Shown here one piece after another: positions 696 to 59,701 of a stretch of DNA of 64,000 bases. Source of the stretch: a bacterium (GTDB lineage Bacteria; Patescibacteriota; Minisyncoccia; Minisyncoccales; CG1-02-41-26); contig JAUVXX010000003.1 of the NCBI GenBank assembly GCA_030603395.1, positions 30,645 to 94,644 on the forward strand, read 5' to 3'. The notes below the pieces were generated by a model. That model did no database searches. It saw only the letters and a list, made by a program, of their open reading frames with translations, and had not been told where the DNA came from. How positions within the stretch are numbered: position 1 is the stretch's first letter; each line of letters starts with the position of its first letter. A program made the position numbers and the translations under genes.

Positions 696-1881
696 CCCTT
701 GTCAAGTGGATAACTGAAAAAAGATACTCCGCCCGTGTACCTCGAACACACAACTCTTAGTTGACAGCTAAGTATGTTACCAAATTAACAACAGGGCGGA
801 ATACCCAATCTATATTTTACACTCCCCCATACCTATCGTCAAGAGTAAAGTAGTTTTTCTTCTCCACACGACTTTATTGAGTATTCTGATATAATAAACC
901 TATGAAGAAACCCGTTGACTCCAATAAGGAACGCTTCCATAAACTTCTACACCAAGCGGTTCGCAAATGTGAGCCAGCAAGGCGTAAAACAAGCACACGT
1001 CGGAAAAGCGGTGGTTATAGCGGAAAGCGAACTCGTCCACGTAGGATTGGAGGTGCTTAGGGCTGATAGAGTGAAATGTGCCGTCCATACTTCTTTTCAT
1101 TTGCGACCAGAAGTTTTCAATAGTGTTAGTGTGAATATCACCCTTAACAAACTTGTCTTTGCTGTGGTTAATGATTTTATGTTTATATCCTAACTTTTCT
1201 ATCTTATGATAGCTTGTGTAATTGTCAGTTATTATTTCTGAACCAGTAATTACCCTATCTTTGATAACATTTCGCAAAGTAAGTCGTCCAACATCTTCAA
1301 TAACACCAGCCCTTATTTCACCTTTTCTTTCAACCATACCGAGAACAATAGTTTTATTGCCAGTACTTCTACCACCATATTTTCTTGTCCTACCGCCAAC
1401 ATATGCCTCATCAACCTCAACCCTGCCTCTTAATGAGGAAGTGTCCTGTTTCATTAAACTTCTGATTTGATGGGCTATCCGCCACGCTGTTTTGTAGGTA
1501 GTTCCGAGATGTCTTTGAAGCTCTTTGGCTGAAACCCCGTTTTTTGAGGCACTCATCAAGTAAATGGCAAAGAACCAATCGGTTAGCTTAGTAGATGATT
1601 TGTGAAAGATAGTGCCAGAAGTGGGGTGAAGTTGATAACCGCACCAAGCACAACTATAACATTTACGCTTCTTAATGCGGTGGAAACCCTTTTTACCGCA
1701 TTGAGGGCAAGCAAAAGTCGCACCATACCGCCTGTTAAAGATATAGTCCAAACAGGCATTATCATTAGGAAAGTCCCTTGTAAATTGTTTGTGAGTATAT
1801 TTCATAGCAAATCGGCTTAAATAATTGACCTTTCTATCTCCATTATACTCCTACCAATACCTGTTGTCAAGGGATACACCC
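696..1881 (-). mobile_element. IS1595-family insertion sequence (boundaries tentative)
   Basis: Contains the transposase ORF at 900-1805. Candidate imperfect terminal inverted repeats are cccttgtcaagtgg (696-709) and cctgttgtcaaggg (1860-1873), matching 11/14 as reverse complements. The hexamer acaccc occurs at 693-698 and 1876-1881. Confidence 0.4.
900..1805 (-). CDS. IS1595-family (ISXO2-like) DDE transposase with N-terminal zinc ribbon
   Basis: 301-aa ORF. N-terminal CPQCG...CxxCG zinc ribbon. The central and C-terminal motifs VEVDEAYVGG, ITDNYTSY and HTNTIENFWSQMKR are typical of DDE_Tnp_IS1595. Confidence 0.9.
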   Translation of the reverse strand: MKYTHKQFTRDFPNDNACLDYIFNRRYGATFACPQCGKKGFHRIKKRKCYSCAWCGYQLHPTSGTIFHKSSTKLTDWFFAIYLMSASKNGVSAKELQRHLGTTYKTAWRIAHQIRSLMKQDTSSLRGRVEVDEAYVGGRTRKYGGRSTGNKTIVLGMVERKGEIRAGVIEDVGRLTLRNVIKDRVITGSEIITDNYTSYHKIEKLGYKHKIINHSKDKFVKGDIHTNTIENFWSQMKRSMDGTFHSISPKHLQSYVDEFAFRYNHRFSDVCLFYALLAHICEPLGVEVYGSVPYWSQRVSS

Positions 1882-12590: not shown

Positions 12591-13355
12591 ATGTTTGAAG
12601 ACCTAAAGGGGAAAGTCGCTATTATCACCGGAGCTCGCAGGGGTATGGGCAGAACCCATGCCTTGAAGTTGGCTCAAGAGGGAGTGAAAGTGGTGGTTTC
12701 TGATGTTTCTCAAGAAGATTGCCAGAAAGTGGTTGACGAAATTGAAAAAGAGGGTGGAGAGGGATTAGCTTTGAAATGTGATGTTGCCAAAAAAGAAGAG
12801 GTTGATAAAATGTTTGTCCGGGTCGTCAAGAAATTCGGTAAAGTTGATATCTTAGTCAATAATGCTGGAATTGCTCAATTTAAACCTTTTTTGGAATTAA
12901 CCGAAGAAGAATGGGACAGAACTTTAGACATAAATCTTAAGGGATACTTTTTGTGCGCCCAAGCCGCCGCCAAAGAGATGGCTAAACAAAAATCGGGAGT
13001 GATAGTTAACATTGCTTCGGTGGCCATGGGTCAGCAGGGTGTTGGATTTCCTAATTTAGCCCATTATTGTGCTTCCAAGGGAGGGATTACAGCGATGACT
13101 GAGGTCTTGGCTTTGGAATTAGCTCCTCTTGGCATAAGGGTTAACGTTGTTGCTCCGGGAATGATTGAAACTCCAATGATTGACCCAATCAAGCAAGACT
13201 CCAAGGCGATGGAGGGATTAATGGCTCGGGTTCCCCTCAAAAGAGTCGGCAAACCGGAAGAGGTTTCCAGTCTGGTTTTATTTTTAGCTTCTGATGCTTC
13301 ATCTTACATGACAGGCTCAGCTGTAGTAATTGACGGCGGTTGGCTGGCCGGATAA
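12591..13355 (+). CDS. SDR-family oxidoreductase (FabG-like)
   Basis: TGARRGMG Rossmann motif, NNAG, and the YCASKGG catalytic Y-x3-K. Confidence 0.85.
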   Translation: MFEDLKGKVAIITGARRGMGRTHALKLAQEGVKVVVSDVSQEDCQKVVDEIEKEGGEGLALKCDVAKKEEVDKMFVRVVKKFGKVDILVNNAGIAQFKPFLELTEEEWDRTLDINLKGYFLCAQAAAKEMAKQKSGVIVNIASVAMGQQGVGFPNLAHYCASKGGITAMTEVLALELAPLGIRVNVVAPGMIETPMIDPIKQDSKAMEGLMARVPLKRVGKPEEVSSLVLFLASDASSYMTGSAVVIDGGWLAG

Positions 13356-13359
13356 TGGG

Positions 13360-13563
13360 ATGCCCAAAAAATTTACCAAAAATTCAAATTTAGCTGAAAT
13401 TTTAAAATCCAAGGACAGAGAGAAAATTTTAGCAAAATATAATTTGCCATGCTTGACTTGTCCGATGGCGAAATTTGAAATTCAAAATTTAAAGATCGGT
13501 CAAGTTTGTAAAATGTACGGAATTGATACTGAGAAATTGCTCAGGGAACTAAACAGAAAATAA
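13360..13563 (+). CDS. DUF1858-type redox-disulfide small protein (hybrid-cluster-protein-associated family)
   Basis: NLPCLTCPMAKFE...YGIDTEKLLRELN matches the CxxC plus C-terminal helix pattern of that family. Start taken at the internal ATG. Confidence 0.55.
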   Translation: MPKKFTKNSNLAEILKSKDREKILAKYNLPCLTCPMAKFEIQNLKIGQVCKMYGIDTEKLLRELNRK

Positions 13564-13584
13564 CTTCATAATCAAAAAGAGAAC

Positions 13585-13686
13585 ATGAAAAAACAAATTC
13601 CTCCTCTATGGGGGATACTTATTGTCGTTGTCTTTTCCTCTTTGATTATTCTTTACCTGGTGGGCTTGATGGCTTCTTTCTCATAA
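13585..13686 (+). CDS. Possible 33-aa membrane peptide
   Basis: Own translation: MKKQIPPLWGILIVVVFSSLIILYLVGLMASFS. It is below the ORF-track size cutoff and has no further support. Confidence 0.25.
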   Translation: MKKQIPPLWGILIVVVFSSLIILYLVGLMASFS

Positions 13687-13826
13687 GGAACATTGACAAA
13701 TTTTTTAGATATGGTAAGGTTAGTTTAATAAGATAAAAAATATTCTTTGATAATTTTAAAAGGAATGAAATGAGATAATTCAGGACGAGAAAAAAATAAG
13801 ATTAATTAGAAAAGGAGGTATAGGAG

Positions 13827-14603
13827 ATGAAGAAAAGATTGATAGTAGTAATGTTGATGGCGGGCTTATTTTTGGCAGCAAGTCCAGCATTATGGGGAGC
13901 AGGAAAATGGTACACAGAGATAGGGATTGGAGGGCATAATCTTTCTTTGGCCGGACCAAATGGGTTAATCAAAAGTTTCAATGACTGGCTCGGAGATACC
14001 TGCGGGATAACTGGGTTTGAAGCAGAAGAGATACCAGAAAGTACTACCCTTTACTCTCTTAGTACGGGAGTAGAATTCCCGAATGGGCTGAAAGTGGGAG
14101 TCAACCTTGGCTATCGAGCAGGAAAAGAAAGCTACAGAGAGAAATTAATGACCGTTGGTGTTGAAGGAACTGAGAAACTGGTCAGAGTTAAGACATATTC
14201 CTTTAACGGAGGGGTATCTGGAGACTTGTCGCTTTATTACAGGTTTGTTTCTTCTAAGTCAGGGCTGGTTCCCTATATTGGAACTGGACTGGGATGGTAT
14301 GCGACGGTGCTCTTTGGCGAATACTTAGTTGAAGAGTACACTCCGGCATTGAATAGATCTTTCTCTGGAAGCTTCTCAGCATCAGGTCTCGCTTTGGGAC
14401 ATGTGATAATGATAGGAATTGAGTCCTCGGGGGAGAAAAGCAGAGTTAGATTGGAGGCGAAGTATCATCAAGTTGGGTCAGTTGAAGGTAAATTCGGACA
14501 TCTAGAGAACAACGGATTCGCTACCTCACCCTTTAAACCAGGTCCGTTTAACGTCAACACAAGTGGGTGGACGATAGGTGGCGGGATAATCTTTAATCTC
14601 TAG
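13827..14603 (+). CDS. Secreted protein with outer-membrane beta-barrel-like sequence pattern
   Basis: Strong SD (aaggaggt) and a signal peptide. Repeated amphipathic beta-strand patterns occur (LKVGVNLGYRAG, DLSLYYRF, YIGTGLGWYA, VRLEAKYHQV), and the protein ends GGGIIFNL. Confidence 0.5.
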   Translation: MKKRLIVVMLMAGLFLAASPALWGAGKWYTEIGIGGHNLSLAGPNGLIKSFNDWLGDTCGITGFEAEEIPESTTLYSLSTGVEFPNGLKVGVNLGYRAGKESYREKLMTVGVEGTEKLVRVKTYSFNGGVSGDLSLYYRFVSSKSGLVPYIGTGLGWYATVLFGEYLVEEYTPALNRSFSGSFSASGLALGHVIMIGIESSGEKSRVRLEAKYHQVGSVEGKFGHLENNGFATSPFKPGPFNVNTSGWTIGGGIIFNL

Positions 14604-14623
14604 AAGGCGAAGATTTGCAAGTT

Positions 14624-14672
14624 TTAAATGCCCATTGGTGCAGTACGAATACTGCGCCAATGGGTCTTTTTT
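14624..14672 (+). terminator. Rho-independent terminator
   Basis: Stem cccattggtgcag / ctgcgccaatggg (12/13) followed by a T-run. Confidence 0.6.
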
Positions 14673-14721
14673 ATTTGACATACATATTTGCTATAATATT
14701 ATAAGTGCTTTTAATAAACCT

Positions 14722-15381
14722 ATGAAAAAAAATATCTCATCCATTATAGGCATAGTCATAATCTTGGCAATTTCAATCCCGATTATTCTTTATCTTATTG
14801 GATTGATACCTCCTTTTTGGGCGGGTGAAGCTCCGGTTGTGCCCGAACTTTCAGAAGAAGAGAAATGCCAACTAATTGAAAATCAAGAAGAAAGAGACAT
14901 TTGTTATGTAAAATTAGCTATTAAAACAAACGACACCCTAATTTGTGATAAAATCAATAATACTATAAATAAAGACCAATGCCATGCTGTTGTTGCTATG
15001 ACTCTGAATGATTCCTTGCTCTGCGAAAAAATTTCAGAAAAAGAGATATTAGATATATGTAATGCTGTTACTTTGAGAGATGTTAGTTTATGCGACAAGA
15101 TTGTAGACAATGCGTTGAAGAGCACCTGTTATATGGGCTTAGCTTTTTTTTCTGAAGATCCTTCGGTCTGTAGTAAATTTTCTGAAGATAATCCTTCAAT
15201 CATCTGTAATGCTCTTGCTTCAAAAAACCCTCTATTATGTGAGGATTTAGAAGAAAAAGATGGGTGTTATTTAACCATTGCCCCGATGCTAAAAGATATT
15301 TCCGTATGCGACAATATTACCGATGAAGGACATAAAGAACAGTGCCGTTTATTAGTTAAAGAATGGCAAAATGGAAAATAA
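14722..15381 (+). CDS. Membrane-anchored protein made of Cys-x(n)-Cys tandem repeats
   Basis: N-terminal TM segment, then about 8 repeats of roughly 25-30 aa of the form D/N-x-x-x-C-x(7-12)-C (ICDKINNT..C, LCEKISEK..C, LCDKIVDN..C, VCSKFSED..C, LCEDLEEK..C, VCDNITDE..C). Confidence 0.55.
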   Translation: MKKNISSIIGIVIILAISIPIILYLIGLIPPFWAGEAPVVPELSEEEKCQLIENQEERDICYVKLAIKTNDTLICDKINNTINKDQCHAVVAMTLNDSLLCEKISEKEILDICNAVTLRDVSLCDKIVDNALKSTCYMGLAFFSEDPSVCSKFSEDNPSIICNALASKNPLLCEDLEEKDGCYLTIAPMLKDISVCDNITDEGHKEQCRLLVKEWQNGK

Positions 15382-17401
15382 GAAATTAATTCTCATAATC
15401 GTAATATTCACAGCAATTTTTCTTGCGAGTTTTTTATTTGAGGCAAGACCTGTAAATGCAGGAGGTGTTTGTCTGGATTCTCCAAGCGGATGGTGTTGTT
15501 CAATTTCAGGGTCTCTTGGGAGATGGTATGCTTGCACTGATAATTGGTGCAACCCGCCTGGTTGCACGTATTCTTGTTCTGGGAATGATCGTATAGGTCA
15601 TTGTTACGCTCAAGCCTGGTGGTTTTTTTGTTGGGACTTCAATTGTTCCAGAACGGTTGATCACTGTGGTTCTGATGGCTGGACAGGTGAATACAGATGT
15701 TCAGGTGATTGGAGGCAAAGAAAATATGTGAGTAGAGGCTGTTCAGGAAACAATTGTTACGAAACACCTGACTGGAGAAATGAGCATTATTGTCCTGATG
15801 GCTGGTACGGAGTTCCGGCCGAAGGCCCGATTGGGGAATATGTCTGTGAAGGGGGCTGGTTAAAAGAGAAGTACGTAGATTGGTGGTGTCAGGGAGCGGG
15901 CGAATGCAAATGGAGCTCATATTTTCAAAACAAAGAATACTGTGATGACGATTATTGCGACTCCTGGCAGTATTATTGTAAAAACAGCAGCACCAGATGC
16001 AGAAAAAAAACCTGTCACGATGAAAAATGCTCAACCAGCGGCTATTGCTATTGGAATGATTACACCGACGGCCCCTATTGCGACAGCTGCGGCACCGACA
16101 CCTCCTGCTCATATACCTCCTGTTCAGACGACAATACCCGACAAGGAACCTGGAAAGATTATTATTGCTCGGGAACCTCTTGTGGCGTCTCCACTAAAAC
16201 CTGCTACAGCGACTGTTCTTATCCCCAATGTTGTTTAAATGGCAGTTGTAAATCAGCCGGAACCTGCAACGGAAGTAAAATATGCTCCGGGAGCAGCTGG
16301 ATAAACCATTGCGGAGACGGTGCCTGCAACTGTGGCGAAACAGTGTCTACCTGTCCCAGTGATTGCGATACTTCTCCTCCGACCATTACCTTCAATCCCA
16401 CCTCCCGTTCCTGGTCCAACACCAGCGCCAACGTTATTGTTACCGCTTCTGACCCTTCGGGAATCTCTGTCACCTACTACTGCTGGACCACTGGCAGCAG
16501 TTGTTCACCAAGCGCTTCCTTTAGCAACGGAGCCACCCTGACGCAATCCTCTAATGGCAGCTGGAATCTCTGCATCAAAGCCAGAGATAATGCTAACAAT
16601 GAAACCACTAACTGCTCCGGGCGATACCAGATAGATAAAACTATCCCCACTGTCACCTCCTTTAAGGTTGACGGACATACCTCTGACTTCACTGTCATTA
16701 ATGACACCAGTTTCACCATCAGTTGGGCAATCTCTGACAGCGGCGGTTCCAACCTTTCCCGGGTGGAAGTCTGGCGTAAGACAGATGGTGGGAGTTGGAC
16801 AAAAGTCCATACAGAAGACGCTGCTGGCAGTTCCAGCTCCGGTTCTTGGGCTAACTCAGTTTCTTGCGGACACACTTATCAATATGGTCTCCATGTGCTT
16901 GATGTGGCTGGCAACATGGGTCTGGAGCCCTCAACTATTACTGGTACCAATGATTGTTGCACTCCCATCCCCCACGCTGATTATAAATGTTACAACAATG
17001 ATGTTTATTGGTATGATTCCTGCGGCAACCTGGAGGAGCTCAAGCAGGACTGCCAGGTAAGTTGTTTTTCAATCCGTAATCCTCCGTCAAATTTGAGCTG
17101 TGAAAAGAAAACTTATATCTGTCCATCCGGGGAAAAGGCGTGTGGTTATCCATTACAAACATGCGGCTATGAGGCCTCCGGACTTATTTGTGAGTGTAAT
17201 GAGGACGAGGGAACAAAAACAAAAATTTGTGATGGAGCAGGAGGTTGTAATGTTATATCACCAGTGTGTGATACGATTTGTGGCGCTGGCGCTGAATGTC
17301 AAGGTCTTGAGTCAGGAGATGCTTACCCTGGAGACCCTTTCAGGAAATGCTGTAAAGGGCAAGCAGGTTTGCCCAAATGGAGAGAGGTAGTGCCCTATTA
17401 A
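15371..17401 (+). CDS. Large secreted hyper-cysteine protein with central Ig/Fn3-like region
   Basis: 676 aa with a signal peptide. The N-terminal ~300 aa is very Cys-rich (not counted) and has internal repeats (DGWTGEYRCSGDW..KYV / GEYVCEGGW..KYV). A CGDGACNCGETVSTCPSDC motif is present. The middle region is beta-rich (TIPTVTSFKVDG...), and the C-terminus is again Cys-rich. Confidence 0.6.
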   Translation: MENKKLILIIVIFTAIFLASFLFEARPVNAGGVCLDSPSGWCCSISGSLGRWYACTDNWCNPPGCTYSCSGNDRIGHCYAQAWWFFCWDFNCSRTVDHCGSDGWTGEYRCSGDWRQRKYVSRGCSGNNCYETPDWRNEHYCPDGWYGVPAEGPIGEYVCEGGWLKEKYVDWWCQGAGECKWSSYFQNKEYCDDDYCDSWQYYCKNSSTRCRKKTCHDEKCSTSGYCYWNDYTDGPYCDSCGTDTSCSYTSCSDDNTRQGTWKDYYCSGTSCGVSTKTCYSDCSYPQCCLNGSCKSAGTCNGSKICSGSSWINHCGDGACNCGETVSTCPSDCDTSPPTITFNPTSRSWSNTSANVIVTASDPSGISVTYYCWTTGSSCSPSASFSNGATLTQSSNGSWNLCIKARDNANNETTNCSGRYQIDKTIPTVTSFKVDGHTSDFTVINDTSFTISWAISDSGGSNLSRVEVWRKTDGGSWTKVHTEDAAGSSSSGSWANSVSCGHTYQYGLHVLDVAGNMGLEPSTITGTNDCCTPIPHADYKCYNNDVYWYDSCGNLEELKQDCQVSCFSIRNPPSNLSCEKKTYICPSGEKACGYPLQTCGYEASGLICECNEDEGTKTKICDGAGGCNVISPVCDTICGAGAECQGLESGDAYPGDPFRKCCKGQAGLPKWREVVPY

Positions 17402-17417
17402 TAAGTTTTGACCTCTA

Positions 17418-17597
17418 ATGATGATAAAGCAGGGGAAGTTTCTTTGGCTAATTCTCGCCCTTTTATTTCTAACCAATATCTTTGTCTGGCAGAAAACTTT
17501 TGACTTGACCAATCCCAAACTGGAGGTGGTCTTTTTTGATGTTGGCCAGGGAGATGCTATTTTCATTGAATGTCCCTTCTTACCGCATAGAATTTGA
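17418..17597 (+). pseudogene. Displaced 5' fragment of the ComEC-type MBL gene
   Basis: 17421-17570 matches 20564-20713 with 5 mismatches (145/150 by my own alignment). The reading frame continues only 8 codons (CPFLPHRI) into unrelated sequence before a TGA stop. Confidence 0.75.
17421..17570 (+). repeat. Left copy of the 150-bp direct repeat bounding the 3-kb island
   Basis: Aligned by eye to 20564-20713. Confidence 0.85.
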
Positions 17598-17756
17598 GGA
17601 GGTAATAAGGGTTAAGGATTAAAAATTCAATAAAAGCATAAATAAAAGAAACCAGCGATAGACCTTTGGTTGACTATTCCTCATGCAACAATATCGGAGG
17701 AGGTTAGCGTGTACTTTCCAATTTACTTTTTAATAGATGTATGATATAACTTAAAG

Positions 17757-18332
17757 ATGAATGAGTTATATATTATTTTTGAGGGTAGTATTGATTTAGA
17801 TTCTGCTAAAAAATTATATAATTCTCTTTCATCTGTCGACCCTCAAAAACATAAGAGAATAAACTTAATTTTTTCTTCTAGTGGTGGTAATATATATTTA
17901 GGATTTTTCTTGGCAAATGTAATCCAAAATTTTAAAATTCCTATAAGGATTCACGCAAATAATCGTATAGATTCTATTGCCAATATCATTTATTTGTCTG
18001 CTAAAGAAAGGACTGCAGAGGCATATGCAAGATTCTATTTACACGGAGCATCTGCCACTATTATAGAGGGATACAAAAAAGACTTTGAAGAAGGGGTTAA
18101 TTCACTAAAAGTTGAAAATGAACGCATAGCTCAATATATAGCCGACAACACAGGCCTTTCTATTGATGATGTCTCCAAAATTATGGAAGGAAGAGGTAGC
18201 AAATCTGCACAAGAGGCATTAGGATATGGTATAGTTAAATCAATTGGGCATTTAGAAATTCCACCACATCTAACAGATAGAATAGAAATTCCCTATATAG
18301 TAGTTAAAAATGAAAAAAATAAGAATGCTTAA
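17757..18332 (+). CDS. Clp-fold (S14/S49-like) serine protease paralog
   Basis: 191 aa. NLIFSSSGGNIYLG, RIDSIANIIYL and FYLHG are collinear with the partial protein at 1-476 (SSPGG / GHSMA / LLHS). Confidence 0.6.
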   Translation: MNELYIIFEGSIDLDSAKKLYNSLSSVDPQKHKRINLIFSSSGGNIYLGFFLANVIQNFKIPIRIHANNRIDSIANIIYLSAKERTAEAYARFYLHGASATIIEGYKKDFEEGVNSLKVENERIAQYIADNTGLSIDDVSKIMEGRGSKSAQEALGYGIVKSIGHLEIPPHLTDRIEIPYIVVKNEKNKNA

Positions 18333-18588
18333 AGAAGAACTAAAAGAATATATCATAAAAGAACTTGAACAAATGGGGTGTAGAAATATTGAGTTTTCAA
18401 ATGGAGAAGACAATCTTGCAATTGTATTTTTTGATTGTGATAATCTAATTAGTTTTAGGAAAGAAATACCAGACTGGGAAAATTCTGGTATTCAACTTAA
18501 CACAGAAAGCGAAGAGGTAGAAGAGAAGGGAAGAGGAAGAAAATATAAAATCGAGTTTAAAAAAATATCCACCAATCCTGCATCCTAA
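18310..18588 (+). CDS. Hypothetical protein, translationally coupled to the Clp-fold protease
   Basis: 92-aa ORF overlapping the upstream gene by 23 nt. No recognisable motif. Confidence 0.45.
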   Translation: MKKIRMLKEELKEYIIKELEQMGCRNIEFSNGEDNLAIVFFDCDNLISFRKEIPDWENSGIQLNTESEEVEEKGRGRKYKIEFKKISTNPAS

Positions 18589-18620
18589 GTTATTTTTATA
18601 ATTAATTAAAATAAAAAATT

Positions 18621-18641
18621 GCCCAGCAGATGGGCTTTTTT
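18621..18641 (+). terminator. Rho-independent terminator
   Basis: gccca-gcaga-tgggc hairpin followed by tttttt. Confidence 0.55.
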
Positions 18642-18719
18642 CTCTTGATTTTGTTTTAAGGTAGAGCTATCTTGAAAGTAGATAAATCAATTTCTTAAAA
18701 AGCATAAGACGAAATAATT

Positions 18720-19373
18720 ATGAGTTGGAATAATTTGTCAAAAATCCCTAATTTCCTGCTTGGGGTATGGTACAAAAGAGAGTGGCGGATGACATTGCTA
18801 TTGTTATTATTGGCTTTCGTGCTTTTTCTTTTTCAAATAGAGAAGTACTGGAACATTCTAAATGTAAATAAGGAAGTCGGATTGATGCTCCTTCCGTTTC
18901 TCATCGCCTTTACTGCGGTGGTGTGGAAAGCAGACAAGAAAGGGATAATCATTGCTTCCCTAGGCATTGTTTTTCTTGTTTTGTTTTTCTTCATCCAAGA
19001 ATTTGATAAAAACAATAAAAAATTTGACGATTTTAAATTTGTTAATACCTATAACTGTATAACAACGGAAGGTTACAGTAAAGGTATATCATCCGGAAAA
19101 TATCCAGTAACATATCTTGACTCAACTTTTTACAAAGAAAATTTCAGTTTCATCAGATTAAAATTTGGGGACCCAATCGCTAAAACTGTTTTTGGTCTTA
19201 TATCTAATATAAATTATGTTAATTCGTTTATAAGTACTCTTGAAGCGGCTAATAGAAGTGGTCTAGTTGAGGTCAACAAAGGAGAAACCAGAAGTTGGCT
19301 ACAAGAAGCGGCTAATGATATAAAAGATGTTATTTGTAATCTTCCACAATTACCACCACCAAAAACTGATTAA
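18720..19373 (+). CDS. Hypothetical membrane protein (3 TM plus soluble C-terminal domain)
   Basis: 217-aa ORF with N-terminal hydrophobic segments. Confidence 0.45.
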   Translation: MSWNNLSKIPNFLLGVWYKREWRMTLLLLLLAFVLFLFQIEKYWNILNVNKEVGLMLLPFLIAFTAVVWKADKKGIIIASLGIVFLVLFFFIQEFDKNNKKFDDFKFVNTYNCITTEGYSKGISSGKYPVTYLDSTFYKENFSFIRLKFGDPIAKTVFGLISNINYVNSFISTLEAANRSGLVEVNKGETRSWLQEAANDIKDVICNLPQLPPPKTD

Positions 19374-19412
19374 GTTATAAAAAAACTGAAAAAGATTTTA
19401 AGAAATAAATCT

Positions 19413-19814
19413 ATGAAAAACAATAAAAATATCATTATAATTTTACTTGTGATATTGCTTGGTATATCAGTATATTTCAATTTTTCATTGAATAATAATC
19501 GCTTGAGTGTAGCGGATGAAACACTAAAATGTATTGAGTTATGGGAAAAGAAAAAAGATAGGTTGTTTGGCTACGAAATCGGAAATTATAGAGTAATTTG
19601 GAATAAAAATTTAAATACTTGTTTAGCTGGTAATATTTATGATGAGTATATGAATACTGGCGAGGGTGATGAATATTTTATATTTGTTATTGATTTAATA
19701 ACCGATGAAGTTCTTTTATCTTATTTAACACACGGTGATGAAATGGAAGATAACGGGTTAACTTGGGAAAATGCTATTAAACAATACGAAAATTTTGGAT
19801 TAAGGGTATTTTAG
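19413..19814 (+). CDS. Hypothetical membrane-anchored/secreted protein
   Basis: 133-aa ORF with an N-terminal TM/signal anchor. Confidence 0.45.
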   Translation: MKNNKNIIIILLVILLGISVYFNFSLNNNRLSVADETLKCIELWEKKKDRLFGYEIGNYRVIWNKNLNTCLAGNIYDEYMNTGEGDEYFIFVIDLITDEVLLSYLTHGDEMEDNGLTWENAIKQYENFGLRVF

Positions 19815-19900
19815 AATGAAAAACTATGAAAGAAAAAATTAAGAAAAATAAACCAAAATGTTTGAAATAAAAAAATCAGAGAAACAAAGACAAAGCAAAA

Positions 19901-20473
19901 ATGAAATTATTTAAATCAAAAGAAAAAAAGGCGAGAGGAGAATCACCACAAACCACATCTTTAAGCGACCAAGAAAGACGAAAAATTGAAGAAGAAGCAA
20001 AGCTAAGAGCAAAATTAAGAGAAAAGGAAGAAAAACGGAAGCAATCAAAAAAAGCTGTAGGTTGCTTAGTGGTTTTTTTGGTTATTTTTATCTTCATTAT
20101 TGTTCTTATCGCCATTTCCGGTGATAGTAGAAATTCATCACCAACCACCCAACCCGCCACTCGTTCCCAAACTCTCGGAGTAGGTGAAGATGGTATCGTT
20201 AATAATAATTCTGATAAAAATGACACTTCTGGGATTGCCATTTTAGCTGTAAGTGAATTTTACTTTGACGAATTCACCCAGCTTTCAATAGCAAGAGATG
20301 AGATTGGGTTTCGTAAAATGGTTAGCGAAGGAAAACTTTTTACTGTTAAAAACGGAACAGCAGTAAAGGTAATTGATTTAAAGTTTCTGGGCAAGACGAA
20401 GGTGAGGATTCTTGAAGGAGATTATCTTGGTGAATCAGGGTGGATTGCCTCTGAATTTGTTTTGCCAAAATAA
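19901..20473 (+). CDS. Hypothetical single-pass membrane protein with SH3-like C-terminal domain
   Basis: 190 aa with a charged coiled N-terminus, one TM segment and a Ser/Thr-rich linker. The C-terminal FTVKNGTAVKVIDL...VRILEGDYLGESGWIASEFV resembles bacterial SH3-type folds. Confidence 0.4.
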   Translation: MKLFKSKEKKARGESPQTTSLSDQERRKIEEEAKLRAKLREKEEKRKQSKKAVGCLVVFLVIFIFIIVLIAISGDSRNSSPTTQPATRSQTLGVGEDGIVNNNSDKNDTSGIAILAVSEFYFDEFTQLSIARDEIGFRKMVSEGKLFTVKNGTAVKVIDLKFLGKTKVRILEGDYLGESGWIASEFVLPK

Positions 20474-20563
20474 AGAAAAAGAAGATTTGTATTAAAACCA
20501 GTGGTCAAGTCAAAAACCCACCATCTTAAAATTGGATGGAAGAAATATGAAATTGAATTGTAA

Positions 20564-20713
20564 ATGATAAAGCAGGGGAAGTTTCTTTGGCTGATTCTCG
20601 CCCTTTTATTTCTAACCAATATCTTTGTCTGGCAGAAAACTTTTGACTTGACCAACCCCAAACTGGAGGTGGTCTTTTTTGATGTTGGCCAGGGAGACGC
20701 TATCTTTATTGAA
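20564..20713 (+). repeat. Right copy of the 150-bp direct repeat (5' end of the intact ComEC-type MBL gene)
   Basis: Aligned by eye to 17421-17570. Confidence 0.85.
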
Positions 20714-21442
20714 ACGCCCCAAGGACATCAAATTCTCATTGACGGGGGGCCAAACAAGAAAATTTTGGAGAAATTATCAGAAGAAATGCCTTTCTGGGAC
20801 AATTCATTGGATTTGGTAATTCTAACTCATCCTGAAAAAGACCATGTCGGAGGCCTTAATTATGTTTTAAGGAGATATAAAGTGGAAAATATTTTATGGA
20901 CCGGAGTTCTACGGGATACTAAAACCTTTGAATATTGGCAGGAAAATTTAGCCAATGAAAAAGCAAATGAAATAATAGCTGAAGAGGGGCAGAGAATTAA
21001 AGCAGGCGAGGTGCAAATTTCTATTTTCTACCCCCTTGAGAATTTGGCTAAGAAAGAGTATAAGAACAGCAACGATACTTCAATAATTGCCCGATTAATC
21101 TTTGAGAAAAACTCTTTTCTTTTTGCCGGTGATGCAACGAAAAAAACGGAAAAAGAACTTTTAGCTCAGGAATTTAATCTTAATTCCGATGTATTAAAAG
21201 TTGGCCATCACGGCAGCAAAACCTCAAGTTCTGGAGAATTTTTAGAAAACGTTTCACCTAAGATTGCCGTAATTTCTTGCGGCAGAAACAATCCTTATGG
21301 CCATCCGCACGAACAGGTCTTGCGAAATCTTGAGAATCTTGCTATAAAGGTGCTAAGAACCGACCAACACGGTGATATTAAAATAATTAGCGACGGCAAA
21401 AGCATAAAGTTCTATGGAGGACATCCAATTTCCAATTTTTAA
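20564..21442 (+). CDS. ComEC/Rec2-related metallo-beta-lactamase-fold hydrolase (stand-alone MBL domain with TM anchor)
   Basis: VVFFDVGQGDAIFIETP...ILIDGG and LTHPEKDHVGG (HxxxDH) motifs, followed by LKVGHHGSKTSS. Confidence 0.8.
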   Translation: MIKQGKFLWLILALLFLTNIFVWQKTFDLTNPKLEVVFFDVGQGDAIFIETPQGHQILIDGGPNKKILEKLSEEMPFWDNSLDLVILTHPEKDHVGGLNYVLRRYKVENILWTGVLRDTKTFEYWQENLANEKANEIIAEEGQRIKAGEVQISIFYPLENLAKKEYKNSNDTSIIARLIFEKNSFLFAGDATKKTEKELLAQEFNLNSDVLKVGHHGSKTSSSGEFLENVSPKIAVISCGRNNPYGHPHEQVLRNLENLAIKVLRTDQHGDIKIISDGKSIKFYGGHPISNF

Positions 21443-22487
21443 AACAAAAATTAAAGGCGTTTCTCAAAAATTTGATTTAACTGATTTTAATCAAAGAAAG
21501 GCCTATTTTGAGTTGAAGGCAGGGCGGGAAATTAACAAGTTAAGGGAATATTTAAAAGAGAACAGTTTCATTGCCTATCTTTTAGGTAAAAAGAATTCTG
21601 GCAAGGGCACTTATGCTAAGATGTTCCAGGAGGTGGTAGACAAAGCTCGAGTGGAGCATTTTTCCATTGGCGATATGGTCAGAAAACTTGATGAGGTTGT
21701 CCGAAACAAGAAGAGAAGAAAAGAGTTGATTTCTTTCTTGGAAAAAAATTACCGCGGCTATTCATCTCTCCGAGATATAATTTCTGCCCTGGAAAAAAGA
21801 AGCACCAAAACTCTTCTGTCCTCCGAATTGATTTTAGCTTTGGTGAAAATGGAGATAGCCAAAAAGAGTAAAAAAGCCCTTTTTATTGATGGTTTTCCCA
21901 GGGACTTGGACCAGATTTCTTATTCCCTGTTCTTCCGCGACCTGGTTGGCTACCGGGATGACCCTGATATTTTTGTGCTGATTGACGTTCCAAAAGCCGT
22001 CATTGATGAGAGAATGAAATGTAGAAGGGTTTGTCCTCTCTGTCAGACCTCAAGAAACCTTAAAGTACTTGCTACAAAAAAAGTAGAATATGACCAAAGG
22101 GAGAAAAAATTCCATCTTATCTGCGACAATTCAGAATGCCGGGGGACGAGGATGGTCAGCAAAGAGGGCGATGAATTTGGCATAGAGCCAATTAAGGAGA
22201 GATTAGAAATAGATGAACAATTAATAAAAAAAGCTTTTTCTCTTTATGGTATCCCCAAAATTCTTTTAAGAAATGCTATTCCGGTAAAGAAAGCAAAAGA
22301 ATTTCTTGACGACTATGAGATTACCCCGGAATACAGCTATCAGTGGTCAGAGAAAGAGAGAAAAGTGAAAATAATTGAAAAGCCATGGCAAATTCTTGAT
22401 GACCAAAGGATTCCTTCCTATAGCTTGCTGGCTCCACCGGTAGTCGTTTCTTTGATTAAACAAATGGTAAAGGTGCTGGGGCTTTAA
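21414..22487 (+). CDS. Elongated adenylate-kinase-like (NMP kinase) paralog
   Basis: P-loop-like LLGKKNSGKGTYA, FSIGDMVR, FIDGFPRDLDQ, and a zinc lid (RVCPLC...CDNSECRG). N- and C-terminal extensions bring it to 357 aa. Confidence 0.55.
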   Translation: MEDIQFPIFKTKIKGVSQKFDLTDFNQRKAYFELKAGREINKLREYLKENSFIAYLLGKKNSGKGTYAKMFQEVVDKARVEHFSIGDMVRKLDEVVRNKKRRKELISFLEKNYRGYSSLRDIISALEKRSTKTLLSSELILALVKMEIAKKSKKALFIDGFPRDLDQISYSLFFRDLVGYRDDPDIFVLIDVPKAVIDERMKCRRVCPLCQTSRNLKVLATKKVEYDQREKKFHLICDNSECRGTRMVSKEGDEFGIEPIKERLEIDEQLIKKAFSLYGIPKILLRNAIPVKKAKEFLDDYEITPEYSYQWSEKERKVKIIEKPWQILDDQRIPSYSLLAPPVVVSLIKQMVKVLGL

Positions 22488-27612: not shown

Positions 27613-27690
27613 GCGCTCGCTAACCGAACATTTTTTCAGCGCCCCCACCCTCCCACGCGCCATGCTGAAAAAATGTTGGCCAGCTCGCCC
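27612..27690 (+). repeat. Intergenic hairpin repeat, family 1, copy 1
   Basis: 53 nt (27627-27679) are identical to 45788-45840. A 14-bp perfect stem aacattttttcagc/gctgaaaaaatgtt encloses a 23-nt C-rich loop. Confidence 0.85.
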
Positions 27691-27730
27691 TTATTGGTAT
27701 ATTCGTAATGAATTCGTATTTCGTAACTAT

Positions 27731-45772: not shown

Positions 45773-45851
45773 CCGCTCACTAACCCAAACATTTTTTCAG
45801 CGCCCCCACCCTCCCACGCGCCATGCTGAAAAAATGTTGGTTAGCTCGCGC
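45773..45851 (+). repeat. Intergenic hairpin repeat, family 1, copy 2
   Basis: See copy 1. The identical 53-nt core is at 45788-45840. Confidence 0.85.
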
Positions 45852-45859
45852 TTATTTAT

Positions 45860-46597
45860 ATGAAGTCACTTATCGTAGCCAACTGGAAAATGAATCCCCT
45901 TAGTCAAAAAGCAGCAAGCCAGCTTTTTGATTCTCTGAAAAGGGGTTTAAAAAATGTTAGGAAAACCGAGGTGGTAGTTTGCCCACCGTTTGTTTATCTA
46001 TCAGGGAATCGTTTGACGTCTTTCAAATTAGGCGCCCAAGACTGCTTTTGGCAGGATAAGGGAGCTTTTACCGGAGAGATTTCTCCCCAAATGCTCAAAG
46101 ATTTAGGGGTGAGGTATGTTATTTTGGGTCATTCAGAAAGGAGGCAGGTTATGGGAGAGGCGGATGAGATGGTTAACAAGAAAATAAAAGAAGTTTTGAG
46201 GTTAAAACTTTGGCCCATAGTTTGTGTGGGAGAGACTGCTCAAGAAAGAAAAAAAGGAGAGACCTTTCAGGTTTTAAAAAGAGAAATTAAGGAAGGTTTT
46301 AAAAATGTGCCAAAATCTCAAATGTCAAAAGTGGTTATCGCTTACGAGCCAATCTGGGCAATCGGCACCGGCAACCCCTGTTTAGCAGATGATGCCTTAA
46401 CAGCCGTTCTGTTTATCCGAAAGGTTATCTCTCAGATTTTTGGCATGGCACTTGCCAAAAAGATTAGAATTCTTTATGGAGGAAGCGCTAACTCCCAAAA
46501 CGCTGGAGATTATCTCAATCAGGAGGGTATCAATGGATTGTTGGTGGGAGGTGCTTCCTTGAAACCAAAAGAATTCTTAAAGATAGCTCGGGGTTGA
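45860..46597 (+). CDS. tpiA: Triosephosphate isomerase
   Basis: ANWKMN, GHSERR, AYEPIWAIGTG. Confidence 0.95.
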   Translation: MKSLIVANWKMNPLSQKAASQLFDSLKRGLKNVRKTEVVVCPPFVYLSGNRLTSFKLGAQDCFWQDKGAFTGEISPQMLKDLGVRYVILGHSERRQVMGEADEMVNKKIKEVLRLKLWPIVCVGETAQERKKGETFQVLKREIKEGFKNVPKSQMSKVVIAYEPIWAIGTGNPCLADDALTAVLFIRKVISQIFGMALAKKIRILYGGSANSQNAGDYLNQEGINGLLVGGASLKPKEFLKIARG

Positions 46598-57829: not shown

Positions 57830-57926
57830 GCCCCTGACCCTGCCTCTTGCCTCTCTCACCCTTGTAAGATCACCGTAGGGGCATGATCCGAGAAGAGGGA
57901 GAGGCAGAGATTAGAGGCTAAAAAAT

Positions 57927-58475: not shown

Positions 58476-58476
58476 C

Positions 58477-58803: not shown

Positions 58804-58816
58804 AGAATAAAGAAAC

Positions 58817-59671: not shown

Positions 59672-59674
59672 ACC

Positions 59675-59684: not shown

Positions 59685-59701
59685 ATAAAAAATAAAACAA
59701 C

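What the first reader, a model, noticed from the sequence alone, without database searches (positions are those of the whole stretch)
17418..20713. 3-kb island bounded by 150-bp direct repeats of the 5' end of a ComEC-type MBL gene
17421-17570 and 20564-20713 align over 150 bp with 5 mismatches by my own alignment. The right copy is the true start of the intact gene. The left copy is a stranded start fragment that runs 8 codons into unrelated sequence. The 3 kb between them carries a Clp-fold protease with a coupled 92-aa ORF and three membrane or secreted proteins, with no recombinase. This is the footprint of site-specific integration into the 5' end of a gene by an element that carries a replacement 5' end. 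The alternative is a duplication-mediated insertion. Either way it marks an accessory cassette.
Basis: seen in the sequence. Interest (0 to 1): 0.6.

Follow-up and report, generated by a model that had tools for sequence, protein, structure and literature searches.

The report
Cargo islet duplicating a gene start
A 3-kb block of foreign genes sits inside the start of a DNA-uptake-type nuclease gene of a Patescibacteria-like genome, and the gene stays whole because a second copy of its first 50 codons lies on the far side of the insert. The same break point, with the same 8-codon tail, recurs in other metagenomes, so this looks like the docking site of an undescribed family of gene-targeting mobile elements, not a one-off accident.

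Summary
17421-17570 and 20564-20713 are 150-nt direct repeats with 5 mismatches, all third-position synonymous transitions. Homology extends a further 11 nt upstream of each ATG, so the units are 17408-17570 and 20553-20713. The 2,982 nt between them (17571-20552) is the lowest-GC stretch of the window, at 31.4% against 39.8%.

A relative (L004) has the same upstream gene running straight into an intact MBL gene, with no island. Two island genes have homologs that sit directly beside large serine recombinases in other contigs. The island itself, and the whole 64 kb, hold no integrase.

The decisive new result is that at least six other short ORFs in public metagenomes are MBL N-terminal fragments from different hosts (41-50% identical in the alignment). 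They break at the same codon and carry the same 8-codon tail before a stop (CPFLPHRI / CPQIPHRV / SSLIPYRV and others). The N-terminal module of this MBL family also has a different history from the gene body.

Best reading, at about 0.6: an integrase-less remnant (CIME-like) of a site-specific element family that targets codon 50 of the ComEC-type MBL gene and carries a replacement 5' end. This is a new member of a known kind (e14/icd, SXT/prfC). The recombinase is unidentified.

The parts
13330..13563 (+). DUF1858 / redox-disulfide small gene. It is the conserved upstream neighbour of the MBL gene in relatives.
   Evidence: L001-L003: DUF1858 overlaps the MBL start; 78% nt identity to L001 up to 13561; TIGR03980, 9e-11.
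13585..13686 (+). ORF33, a small transmembrane ORF. In L014 it ends ...LMASLSFK* with its TGA overlapping the MBL ATG. Here its tail is cut at 13679/13680 by island 1.
13680..17407 (+). Island 1, the older distal insert. It carries genes for a 258-aa secreted protein, a 248-aa Cys-rich membrane protein and a 676-aa protein with 67 Cys. GC is 43%. It is absent in L014 and L001-L003. L004 has a diverged counterpart, sharing the promoter-like TTGACA...TATGGTAA at 13689-13717 and the 3' end of the Cys-rich gene.
17408..17570 (+). Left repeat unit: the displaced MBL start, from -11 to +150. The ORF 17418-17597 is the stranded fragment.
17571..17597 (+). The 8-codon tail plus stop (TGTCCCTTCTTACCGCATAGAATTTGA, CPFLPHRI*). 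This is the left end of the island. It is homologous to the tails of MBL fragments in other metagenomes and is a candidate recombination-site arm.
   Evidence: It is not decayed MBL sequence and is unique in the window.
17561..17635 (.). Nested inverted repeats spanning the junction. Inner pair: CCCTTCTTACC (17574-17584) and GGTAATAAGGG (17601-17611), 10 of 11 complementary, 16-nt spacer. Outer pair: TTTCATTGAAT (17561-17571) and ATTCAATAAAA (17625-17635).
   Evidence: Significance is modest (my estimate p about 0.02-0.05 for the inner pair). The role is inferred.
17571..20552 (+). Island 2: 2,982 nt of cargo at 31.4% GC, the lowest-GC 3-kb stretch of the window.
   Evidence: No match in phage or plasmid records.
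17722..18645 (+). Self-contained two-gene module: a promoter-like -10 region, the ClpP-fold gene (17757-18332), an overlapping 92-aa ORF (18310-18588) and a terminator-like hairpin (18621-18635 followed by a T run). The module recurs in unrelated contexts (L005, L009, L013, L032).
18720..19373 (+). 217-aa protein with three hydrophobic segments and no family match.
19413..19814 (+). 133-aa protein with an N-terminal membrane anchor or signal and no family match.
19901..20473 (+). 190-aa single-pass membrane protein. Its C-terminal domain matches phrog_25409 (1e-10). Homologs lie directly downstream of large serine recombinases in L033-L035.
20547..20567 (+). Six-codon leader ORF (MKLNCK*). Its start and an upstream GGAAG come from the island end. 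Its last four codons are the relic of the ORF33 tail, and its TGA overlaps the MBL ATG. It probably preserves translational coupling (inferred).
20553..20713 (+). Right repeat unit: the working MBL start, from -11 to +150.
20564..21442 (+). Intact ComEC-type MBL gene (292 aa), the target gene. It is a three-way mosaic: residues 1-34 are like P0004, 63-250 like P0002/P0003, and 251-292 like P0006.
21414..22487 (+). Adenylate-kinase-like gene, the conserved downstream neighbour in all relatives.

Best explanation
Island 2 (17571-20552) is the integrase-less remnant of a mobile element of an undescribed family. These elements integrate site-specifically into the conserved GQGD-A-IFIE-coding stretch (codon 50) of the ComEC-type MBL gene of Patescibacteria.

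The element carries its own copy of the gene's -11..+150 segment at one end. A single reciprocal crossover at or near +150 then does two things:
1. It rebuilds an intact gene from the element-borne start plus the host body. This is the right copy, with an island-supplied leader ORF that keeps translational coupling.
2. It strands the host's original start at the other junction. This is the left copy, which reads 8 codons into the conserved element end and stops.

Shown: the duplication, the foreign composition of the island, the uninterrupted arrangement in a relative, the recurrence of the same junction and tail in other hosts, and the separate history of the N-terminal module.

Inferred: the circular intermediate, which copy came with the element, the position of the crossover, and the kind of recombinase. 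A large serine recombinase is the lead, because cargo homologs sit beside such genes elsewhere. A tyrosine recombinase acting in trans is equally possible.

In its present state the island can move only with a recombinase supplied in trans. It can also be lost by homologous deletion between the 161-nt repeats, which would leave an intact gene.
For: - Repeat: 150 nt with 5 mismatches, plus 11 diverged upstream nt.
- All 5 differences are synonymous third-position transitions. P = 0.005 if random; about 0.04 if only one copy was constrained (and my calculation).
- L004 has the Cys-rich gene 3' end followed directly by a continuous MBL-ADK pair. L004 4738-5024 matches window 17278-17569, and L004 4864-6673 matches window 20552-22342.
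- Island GC is 31.4% against 39.8% for the window, ranking 2nd lowest of 1221 sliding windows, all of the low ones overlapping the island.
- Recurrent junction: the window fragment and seven other short ORFs stop exactly 13 residues after GQGD, that is 8 codons after IFI(E/V). Of these, P0220, P0222, P0228, P0230 and P0239 share the tail motif x-(P/S)-x-(L/I)-P-(H/Y)-R-(V/I)-stop, and P0289 shares the Cys and Tyr positions (P0227 stops earlier, CSV*; P0243 has the length but an unrelated tail). Their MBL parts are only 41-50% identical to the window's in the alignment, and they come from separate JGI, Logan and ENA contigs.
- Differences between tails are of the single-nucleotide kind (C/S/Y, H/Y, I/V/L, R/S). 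This points to conservation at the DNA level.
- The tail is not decayed MBL sequence: the local alignment of 17571-17760 against MBL +151 onward scores below the shuffle mean.
- Dyad symmetry overlaps the tail.
- MBL mosaic: residues 1-34 are 79% identical to P0004 against 39% to P0002. Residues 63-250 are 88% to P0002 against 64% to P0004. All four N-terminus/body combinations occur.
- Cargo is linked to mobile elements. The Clp module lies directly downstream of a 564-aa large serine recombinase plus HTH_17 in L009, and with HTH_17, HARE-HTH and a methyltransferase in L005. Homologs of the 190-aa protein lie directly downstream of a different large serine recombinase in L033-L035.
- Documented precedents: e14 is flanked by icd and the icdC pseudogene, which differ mostly by synonymous changes (PMC13626634). 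[quoted passage not shown] CIMEs and tandem accretion are described in PMC5704250.
Against: - No integrase or transposase lies in the island. There is no serine or Xer-like recombinase in any ORF of at least 60 aa in the 64 kb (a low-sensitivity test). Pfam on the candidate ORFs found only an IS1595 transposase 16 kb away.
- No remnant of a recombinase gene was found in the island.
- The DNA around the other fragments could not be fetched, so it is unknown whether an island and a second intact gene start follow them.
- The empty-site relative L004 is distant (78-81% nt identity), not a sister strain. L014, the closest relative (86-92%), ends at +104 of the MBL gene. It therefore shows only that island 1 is absent.
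- The five mismatches cannot be polarised with L004 or L014, so which copy is element-borne is unresolved.
- A 161-nt near-identical segment is far longer than any known att core and would also support plain RecA recombination.
- The inverted repeats are only modestly significant, and no matching site exists at the right end.
- No relative of any island protein or of the MBL start was found in 2.9 million viral contigs.
Confidence: 0.6

Rival explanations
1. A one-off Campbell-type insertion by the host's general homologous recombination. A circular DNA happened to carry about 160 nt of the MBL start, for example a circle made by aberrant excision of an element sitting at the -11 position upstream of a relative's MBL gene. 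It recombined with the chromosomal gene through RecA. No dedicated site-specific system targets codon 50.
For: - 161 nt at 97% identity is ample for RecA, and the topology is exactly that of insertion-duplication.
- No recombinase is present in 64 kb.
- The right junctions of island 1 and island 2 both fall at -11/-12. This fits an element formerly sitting at that position. A large serine recombinase gene lies immediately upstream of the Clp gene in L009, so an aberrant cut there would lose it.
- The MBL gene shows mosaicism at both ends, indicating frequent homologous exchange at this locus.
Against: It does not explain why MBL fragments from hosts only 41-50% identical in the alignment break at the same codon and carry a homologous 8-codon tail and stop. 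It also does not explain why the tail has stayed conserved.
Confidence: 0.17
2. The 58-aa ORF is not debris. It is a conserved small membrane-protein gene, an ancient paralogue of the MBL N-terminus with its own C-terminal LP(H/Y)R(V/I) motif. Its first 150 nt are kept nearly identical to the neighbouring MBL gene by gene conversion, and the space between the two genes is simply a variable cargo hot spot.
For: - Intact ORFs of the same length with a conserved C-terminal motif exist in several divergent lineages. A true pseudogene should decay at that divergence.
- The protein sequence of residues 1-50 is identical between the copies in the window.
- The tail shows a faint resemblance to MBL residues 51-58 (P52, H55, I57).
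Against: - L004, L001-L003 and L014 show no such ORF upstream of their MBL genes within the sequence available.
- Substitutions in the tail include Cys/Tyr/Ser and Pro/Ser/Cys swaps. These are single-nucleotide changes but poor protein-level conservation.
- A transmembrane helix plus one beta-strand of an MBL fold is not a plausible stand-alone domain.
- The model does not explain the foreign composition of the island or its cargo's link to mobile elements.
Confidence: 0.1
3. Illegitimate or homology-facilitated recombination during natural transformation. Linear DNA from a strain whose MBL gene is natively preceded by the island genes was anchored by homology in the MBL gene and joined illegitimately at +150.
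For: These organisms carry DNA-uptake genes. The mosaic MBL gene shows that foreign alleles are imported. The left junction shows no obvious long homology.
Against: One-sided anchoring normally deletes recipient DNA and does not duplicate the anchor. No contig was found with the island genes natively upstream of an MBL gene. The model cannot explain the recurrent junction and tail.
Confidence: 0.05
4. Assembly artefact: a chimeric contig joining co-existing strains across the shared MBL start.
For: The source is a metagenome-assembled contig of 100,951 nt. The two copies share exact blocks of 62 and 41 nt, which could mislead a de Bruijn assembler.
Against: - The left junction (ATTGAA|TGTCCC) shares only 6 nt with the true gene, so it cannot arise from k-mer overlap between the two copies.
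- The repeat is 161-163 nt with a diverged upstream part, not a read-length unit.
- The same fragment-plus-tail junction is independently assembled in at least six other datasets by different pipelines.
Confidence: 0.04

Closest known systems
Cryptic prophage e14 (and phage 21) in the icd gene of E. coli
   Same: The element carries a replacement copy of the end of a conserved gene (about 165 bp). After integration the gene is intact and the displaced end remains as a pseudogene (icdC) on the far side. The two copies differ mostly by synonymous changes (PMC13626634). The repeat length and the synonymous-only divergence are nearly the same here.
   Different: e14 replaces the 3' end; here the 5' end is replaced, together with its translation-initiation context. 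e14 is 15 kb and encodes its own integrase and excisionase. This island is 3 kb with none. The hosts are Patescibacteria and the target gene is unrelated.
SXT/R391 integrative conjugative elements in prfC
   Same: [quoted passage not shown]
   Different: SXT uses a 17-bp core and a tyrosine integrase encoded next to attP. It is about 100 kb and conjugative. Here the shared segment is 161 nt and no integrase or transfer genes are present.
CIMEs (cis-mobilizable elements) and tandem accretion at the ends of target genes (ICESt1/ICESt3-type islands)
   Same: A small cargo island that has lost its integration genes but is still bounded by direct repeats made of the target-gene end. Successive inserts at one gene end push older ones outward (PMC5704250). 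Island 1 plus island 2 form such a two-layer arrangement upstream of MBL.
   Different: In CIMEs the att sites are shown to be recombined by a related resident ICE integrase. No cognate integrase was found here. Island 1 has no repeat at its outer end.
Tycheposons of Prochlorococcus
   Same: Integrative elements in a streamlined, uncultivated-type genome build islands at a fixed site. They leave partial copies of the target as flanking repeats, plus cargo-only remnants (bioRxiv 10.1101/2020.12.28.424599).
   Different: The targets there are tRNA genes, and the elements are defined by particular tyrosine or serine recombinases and replication modules. None of these were seen here.
SCCmec and pseudo-SCC cassettes at the end of rlmH (orfX)
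   Same: These are large-serine-recombinase-driven cassettes that insert in a conserved gene end without destroying it. They accumulate in tandem and often persist as recombinase-less remnants bounded by direct repeats. This comparison rests on my own knowledge and was not checked in a paper here.
   Different: The repeats there are about 15-18 bp at the 3' end of the gene, with no long duplicated coding segment.

Membership tests
Site-specific integrative element with target-gene-end replacement (e14/icd, SXT/prfC type) | [quoted passage not shown] | tested here: met
   17408-17570 and 20553-20713.
Site-specific integrative element with target-gene-end replacement (e14/icd, SXT/prfC type) | The target gene remains intact after insertion, and the displaced end is a truncated pseudogene. 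| tested here: met
   the 292-aa ORF is full length against 120 homologs. The left fragment stops 8 codons after residue 50.
Site-specific integrative element with target-gene-end replacement (e14/icd, SXT/prfC type) | Uninterrupted (empty) site in relatives. | tested here: met
   L004; L001-L003. Only distant relatives were available, with no same-species strain. L014 covers only up to +104.
Site-specific integrative element with target-gene-end replacement (e14/icd, SXT/prfC type) | The same insertion point is used repeatedly in independent hosts. | tested here: met
   at least six fragments from other contigs break at the same codon and share the tail. This is protein-level evidence only; their DNA context was not seen.
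Site-specific integrative element with target-gene-end replacement (e14/icd, SXT/prfC type) | Element-encoded integrase (tyrosine or serine) next to an att site. | tested here: not met
   none in the island and no remnant; none in the rest of the 64 kb.
Site-specific integrative element with target-gene-end replacement (e14/icd, SXT/prfC type) | Excised circular form and restored attB. | not testable with these tools
   This needs the reads of the source metagenome.
CIME (cis-mobilizable element) | [quoted passage not shown] | tested here: inconclusive
   The loss or absence of such genes is shown. The repeats are present, but they have not been shown to function as att sites.
CIME (cis-mobilizable element) | A cognate integrase of a related element is present in the same genome or population. 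| tested here: inconclusive
   Not found in the 64 kb. The rest of the genome is not available. Cargo homologs lie next to large serine recombinases in other contigs.
Transposon / insertion sequence | Transposase, terminal inverted repeats and a short target-site duplication. | tested here: not met
   there is no transposase, no inverted repeats pairing the two ends, and the duplication is 161 nt.
Prophage | Structural, packaging or lysis genes. | tested here: not met
   One search gives only weak ClpP-like similarity to head maturation proteases (1e-14), and one search gives 27-30% identity. No capsid, portal or terminase genes. No relatives in IMG/VR.
ClpP (S14) protease family (cargo gene 17757-18332) | ClpP fold. 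| tested here: met
   Pfam 4e-17; TM 0.75-0.83 to ClpP structures.
ClpP (S14) protease family (cargo gene 17757-18332) | Ser-His-Asp catalytic triad, and scores above the family trusted cut-offs. | tested here: inconclusive
   Ser73 and His96 are invariant in 22 homologs, but no Asp is evident at the ClpP Asp171 position (my reading); all NCBIfam ClpP and head-maturation models score below their cut-offs.
ComEC/Rec2 (target gene) | Full ComEC architecture: OB/DUF4131 domain, competence membrane domain and MBL domain. | tested here: not met
   only the MBL part is present (model positions 428-663 of 663; 156 bits against a cut-off of 190). The protein is one transmembrane helix plus the MBL domain.
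Known anti-phage defence systems (cargo) | Match to a PADLOC model. | tested here: not met
   no significant hit for any island protein.

The most novel reading that the evidence does not exclude
The conserved fragment-plus-tail architecture may be a working system and not the scar of ordinary integrative elements. Two readings remain open.

1. A recombinase-poor class of mini-cassettes in Patescibacteria docks by carrying the first 50 codons of the competence-nuclease (ComEC-MBL) gene. These cassettes would be exchanged through natural transformation and host recombination. The gene start would then be a population-wide cargo socket, and the cassettes would swap the protein's membrane-anchor module as they move.

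2. The 58-aa ORF with its conserved LP(H/Y)R(V/I) end is a functional micro-protein, derived from the nuclease's anchor and maintained beside the full gene.
Probability: 0.12. Interest if true: 0.75.

Novelty: new member of a known kind. Interest (0 to 1): 0.45.

Why it matters
Patescibacteria (the Candidate Phyla Radiation) have tiny genomes, and almost nothing is known about how they acquire accessory genes. Very few integrative elements have been described for them.

This locus gives a concrete, sequence-defined docking site: codon 50 of the ComEC-type MBL gene, plus a secondary hot spot 11 nt upstream of its start. It also gives a conserved junction signature, GQGD-x-IFI(E/V) followed by x-P-x-(L/I)-P-(H/Y)-R-(V/I)-stop, which can be searched for in any metagenome to find more islands and the missing recombinase.

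The model also explains why the N-terminal anchor of this protein family has a different phylogeny from the catalytic body. That is a caution for anyone building trees or defining orthologs from this gene.

The cargo is uncharacterised and recurs next to serine recombinases, so it is a lead for new element-borne functions. It comprises a ClpP-fold protein with a coupled small ORF, and membrane proteins.

Tried and rejected
- **Exact look-up of window proteins on contigs.** Nothing on record, so the source contig beyond the window could not be read.
- **Genome-collection scans.** No relatives of the Clp protein were found. The type-A N-terminus pattern gave only chance hits in unrelated phyla. 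The lineage is not among the species representatives.
- **Metagenome scans.** The exact 22-mer found nothing. The degenerate pattern found one useful contig (L014) and one spurious one.
- **Viral contigs.** No relative of any island protein, of the Clp family profile or of the MBL start. The three FFDVGQGD pattern hits are spurious ORFs. A phage origin is not supported.
- **Phage and plasmid records.** No DNA match. There is only 27-30% protein similarity to capsid maturation proteases and ClpP.
- **PADLOC.** No defence system.
- **Rfam, at gathering thresholds on the whole window and at E-value thresholds on the island, and folding of both island ends.** No RNA family, and no end folds better than shuffled sequence.
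- **Recombinase remnants.** phmmer with the L009 serine recombinase and a typed XerD against all six-frame ORFs found nothing. tblastn of 28 neighbour proteins from the recombinase-bearing contigs against the window also found nothing.
- **MBL fragments in the recombinase or Clp contigs.** None.
- **Tail as decayed MBL sequence.** Rejected at the DNA level.
- **Polarising the five mismatches with L004 and L014.** The sites are homoplastic, so this was uninformative.
- **Structure of the 92-aa ORF.** Moderate model (pLDDT 70), a generic alpha-beta-beta-alpha-beta-beta fold, and no significant PDB match.
- **The 24-nt direct repeat bounding L032.** Absent from the window and from the other loci.
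- **P0219 and other multi-stretch hits.** These are repetitive, unrelated sequences.

Full report
**1. Observation**

The repeat is real. 17421-17570 and 20564-20713 align over 150 nt without gaps and with five mismatches. A scan of the whole 64 kb finds only one other repeat of comparable quality, an unrelated 77-nt hairpin element, so chance is excluded.

The left copy is a 59-codon ORF (17418-17597). After residue 50 it reads CPFLPHRI and stops. The right copy opens an intact 292-aa gene. That gene is one N-terminal hydrophobic helix plus a metallo-beta-lactamase domain. It matches the C-terminal MBL part of ComEC/Rec2 (TIGR00361 positions 428-663, E 1e-45, below the full-length cut-off).

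- A ClpP-fold protein (Pfam 4e-17; AlphaFold pLDDT 86; TM 0.75-0.83 to ClpP structures).
- An overlapping 92-aa ORF.
- Three proteins with hydrophobic segments.
- No recombinase, no defence-system match and no phage structural gene.

**2. Refined anatomy**

The window was compared with four related loci found through MBL homologs and with one metagenome contig (L014).

In L001-L003 the order is ThiI, short-chain dehydrogenase, DUF1858, MBL, adenylate-kinase-like. The DUF1858 stop overlaps the MBL start.

In L014, the closest relative (86% nt identity over 13001-13679 and 91-92% over the MBL start), a 35-codon transmembrane ORF lies between DUF1858 and MBL. This is ORF33, and it ends ...LMASLSFK* with its TGA overlapping the MBL ATG.

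In the window, ORF33 is cut at 13679/13680, and 6,873 extra bases precede the working MBL start. Every type-A MBL start still carries the relic of the ORF33 tail:
- L004: GLSSK*
- window right copy: (M)KLNCK*
- window left copy: SFDL***

The duplicated unit is therefore -11..+150, namely 17408-17570 and 20553-20713. The 11 non-coding-like bases are much more diverged than the coding part.

The extra DNA is two islands:
- Island 1 (13680-17407, 43% GC) holds three secreted or Cys-rich proteins.
- Island 2 (17571-20552) has 31.4% GC against 39.8% for the window. It is the lowest-GC 3-kb stretch present.

**3. Is it an insertion?**

L004 (Logan DRR463594) has the 3' end of a homolog of the 676-aa Cys-rich gene followed at once by an uninterrupted MBL gene and the adenylate-kinase-like gene. 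L004 4738-5024 matches window 17278-17569 at 81%. L004 4864-6673 matches window 20552-22342 at 78%.

So the adjacency kept by the left copy exists elsewhere without island 2.

Two caveats apply. L004 is a distant relative, not a sister strain. L014 ends 104 nt into the MBL gene, so it proves only that island 1 is absent.

**4. History of the two copies**

All five differences are third-position synonymous transitions. If five transitions fell at random on this sequence, the chance that all are synonymous is 0.005. If one copy were selected and the other neutral, I estimate about 0.04. The 11 upstream bases differ at 3 positions plus a 3-nt indel.

This pattern fits two gene starts that each served as working sequence in separate but closely related lineages. 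Their 3.3% divergence is less than the roughly 8% that separates either copy from L014. It does not fit an in-place duplication followed by decay. It is the pattern documented for icd and icdC at the ends of prophage e14 (PMC13626634).

The five sites could not be polarised with L004 or L014. Which copy arrived with the island is therefore inferred from topology only.

**5. Recurrence: the most informative result**

A phmmer search with the 58-aa left fragment against 1.84 billion representative proteins returned 77 hits. Many are short ORFs that are MBL N-terminal fragments breaking right after GQGD(A/S)IFI(E/V).

The window fragment and seven other ORFs stop exactly 13 residues after GQGD, that is 8 codons after IFI(E/V). 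The tails are:
- window: CPFLPHRI
- P0220: CPQIPHRV
- P0222: YPILPYSI
- P0228 and P0230: SSLIPYRV
- P0239: CCLSTYRV
- P0289: CSVMEYIT, which shares only the Cys and Tyr positions
- P0243: TQSDTGFD, which has the length but an unrelated tail

P0227 stops earlier (CSV*).

The MBL parts of these fragments are only 41-50% identical to the window's in the alignment. They lie on separate contigs from JGI, Logan and ENA.

The differences between tails are of the single-nucleotide type (Cys/Ser/Tyr, His/Tyr, Ile/Val/Leu, Arg/Ser). This suggests that about 27 nt of DNA (window 17571-17597) is what is conserved.

In the window this sequence is not decayed MBL. The local alignment of 17571-17760 with MBL +151 onward scores below the mean of shuffles. 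The sequence overlaps an 11-nt inverted repeat with a 16-nt spacer (17574-17584 / 17601-17611). That pair is nested in a second inverted repeat which includes the last bases of the MBL copy (17561-17571 / 17625-17635). The statistical weight of these repeats is modest.

A second, smaller class of fragments breaks after D(R/N)TI(D/N)L, near residue 85. Their tails again contain LPxRV (P0234, P0235, P0265). I could not tell whether these are a second insertion site or decayed genes.

**6. Mosaic target gene**

The window's MBL protein has three parts with different nearest relatives:
- Residues 1-34: 79% identical to P0004, but 39% to P0002 and P0003.
- Residues 63-250: 88% and 86% identical to P0002 and P0003, but 64% to P0004.
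- Residues 251-292: closest to P0006, at 88%.

All four combinations of the two N-terminal types with the two body types occur among the top hits. The N-terminal switch falls between residues 35 and 62. This is what elements that deliver a foreign first-50-codon module would produce once they decay. General homologous exchange at this locus would also contribute, as the C-terminal switch shows.

**7. Cargo**

Homology of the Clp gene and its small partner to other contigs is confined to a self-contained unit. It runs from about 35 nt upstream of the start, including a conserved TGnTATGATATAA -10-like element, to the hairpin after the small ORF.

That unit occurs in four unrelated contexts:
- Directly downstream of a 564-aa large serine recombinase preceded by an HTH_17 gene (L009).
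- With HTH_17, HARE-HTH and an N6/N4 methyltransferase (L005).
- L013.
- L032.

Homologs of the C-terminal domain of the 190-aa protein lie directly downstream of a different large serine recombinase, 22% identical to the first, in three contigs.

Two of the five island genes thus belong to the gene pool that travels with serine-recombinase elements.

Nothing in the island, and no ORF of at least 60 aa in the 64 kb, resembles a serine or Xer-type recombinase. Pfam on the unassigned ORFs found only housekeeping genes, an IS1595 transposase at 900-1805, and a PD-(D/E)XK / HTH / ParB-like block at 56.6-61.3 kb.

**8. Mechanism**

The best-supported account is as follows.

A circular element carried a copy of MBL -11..+150 next to its recombination site. 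It recombined with the chromosomal gene at or near +150, inside the DNA that encodes the nearly invariant GQGD-A-IFIE motif.

The reciprocal exchange left two junctions:
- The host's own start joined to the conserved element end (attL-like, 17408-17597).
- The element's start joined to the host gene body (attR-like, 20553 onward).

The island's right end supplies GGAAG, an ATG and a six-codon leader ORF whose stop overlaps the MBL ATG. The translational coupling seen in L014 and L001-L003 is therefore probably kept.

The integrase gene has either been lost since, or never belonged to this small unit. The latter would make it a cis-mobilizable cassette served in trans.

The steps that are shown and the steps that are inferred are listed under the best explanation.

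The main rival keeps the Campbell topology but attributes it to RecA acting on a chance or aberrantly excised circle. It explains the window on its own. It does not explain the recurrent junction and the conserved tail.

A second rival treats the 58-aa ORF as a conserved small gene. It cannot be excluded without the DNA context of the other fragments.

An assembly artefact is unlikely, for two reasons. The left junction shares only 6 nt with the true gene. The same kind of junction was assembled independently in other datasets.

**9. Comparison with known systems**

By function this is closest to four known systems:
- e14/icd: replacement of about 165 bp of a gene end, with synonymous-only divergence.
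- SXT/R391 in prfC: integration in a 5' end (PMC2791158).
- CIMEs and tandem accretion (PMC5704250).
- Tycheposon islands.

Membership in 'integrative element' in the strict sense fails on one defining feature, an element-encoded integrase. The island is best filed as a recombinase-less member or remnant of that kind.

The target gene, the host phylum and the junction signature were not found described. My searches for Patescibacteria serine-recombinase prophages or integrative elements returned nothing specific. That is weak evidence of novelty, not proof.

**10. Verdict**

- Novelty: a new member of a known kind.
- Interest is moderate (0.45). The single island is ordinary in kind. The conserved junction, however, turns it into a searchable signature for an undescribed element family in a phylum whose mobile elements are poorly known.

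Noticed in passing
window 27624-27700 and 45785-45861: A 77-nt direct repeat, 92% identical, with the two copies 18 kb apart. Each copy sits in an intergenic gap just after a stop codon (rpsG/fusA, and upstream of tpiA). Each folds into a hairpin of about 20 bp (AACATTTTTTCAGC...GCTGAAAAAATGTT) around a C-rich loop, with z-scores of -3.3 to -4.7. It has no Rfam match. It may be a REP/MITE-like element or a terminator-like module.
   Followed up: partly
window 900-1805 (-), next to tRNA-Asp 726-801: An IS1595-family transposase (DDE_Tnp_IS1595, 5e-44, plus a zinc ribbon). It is the only transposase or recombinase-type gene found in the 64 kb.
   Followed up: partly
window 56599-61327: A block resembling a phage or plasmid lies just after the ribosomal protein S9 gene. 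It holds a PD-(D/E)XK nuclease (56599-57438), an HTH protein (57927-58475), unassigned ORFs and a ParB-like nuclease/HTH protein (59939-61327). It could be another integrated or decayed element. Its borders were not examined.
   Followed up: no
window 62288-62369: ARAGORN calls an 82-nt tRNA-Cys with the unusual anticodon ACA. Rfam confirms only that it is a tRNA (54.9 bits). The anticodon or isotype call may be wrong, or there may be an insertion.
   Followed up: no
L032 3-26 and 1230-1253 (Logan SRR30965931): This 1,253-nt contig carries the closest relative of the Clp plus small-ORF module (89% aa). It begins and ends with the same 24-nt sequence, GATGGGACGATTTTCGAACTTTTA. The module there is either flanked by repeats or present as a tandem or circular form. 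The sequence is absent from the window and from the other loci.
   Followed up: partly
L009 1630-3917; L033 1685-3889; L034 690-2711; L035 609-2705: Two unrelated large serine recombinases (22% identical to each other) are each followed immediately by a homolog of an island-2 gene. One is followed by the Clp module and the other by the 190-aa protein's C-terminal domain. These small genes seem to be habitual neighbours of integrases in Patescibacteria-type contigs.
   Followed up: partly
proteins P0234, P0235, P0265 (no DNA available): A second class of truncated MBL ORFs breaks after D(R/N)TI(D/N)L, near residue 85. Their tails are related (TMVTVLPNRV*, SKRTVLPRNNRV*, SMVSVLPKRV...) and share LPxRV with the codon-50 tails. 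This could be a second insertion point of the same kind of element, or convergent decay.
   Followed up: no
window 17407/17408 and 20552/20553; L004 about 4864: The right-hand borders of island 1 (window and L004) and of island 2 fall within 1-2 nt of each other, 11-12 nt upstream of the MBL ATG (TT|GA), inside the relic of the ORF33 tail. This position looks like a second recurrent breakpoint.
   Followed up: partly
window 20564-21442 versus P0002, P0004, P0006: The MBL protein is a three-part mosaic. Besides the N-terminal switch, the last 42 residues, including the YGGHPISNF tail, are closest to P0006 (88%) and not to the proteins closest over the body. This indicates recombination at the 3' end of the gene as well.
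   Followed up: partly
window 15371-17401: A 676-aa secreted protein with 67 cysteines and an Ig-like region, encoded at 45-51% GC in a 40% GC genome. It has only patchy 40-55% similarity to the corresponding region of L004. It is a fast-evolving surface protein in the older island.
   Followed up: no
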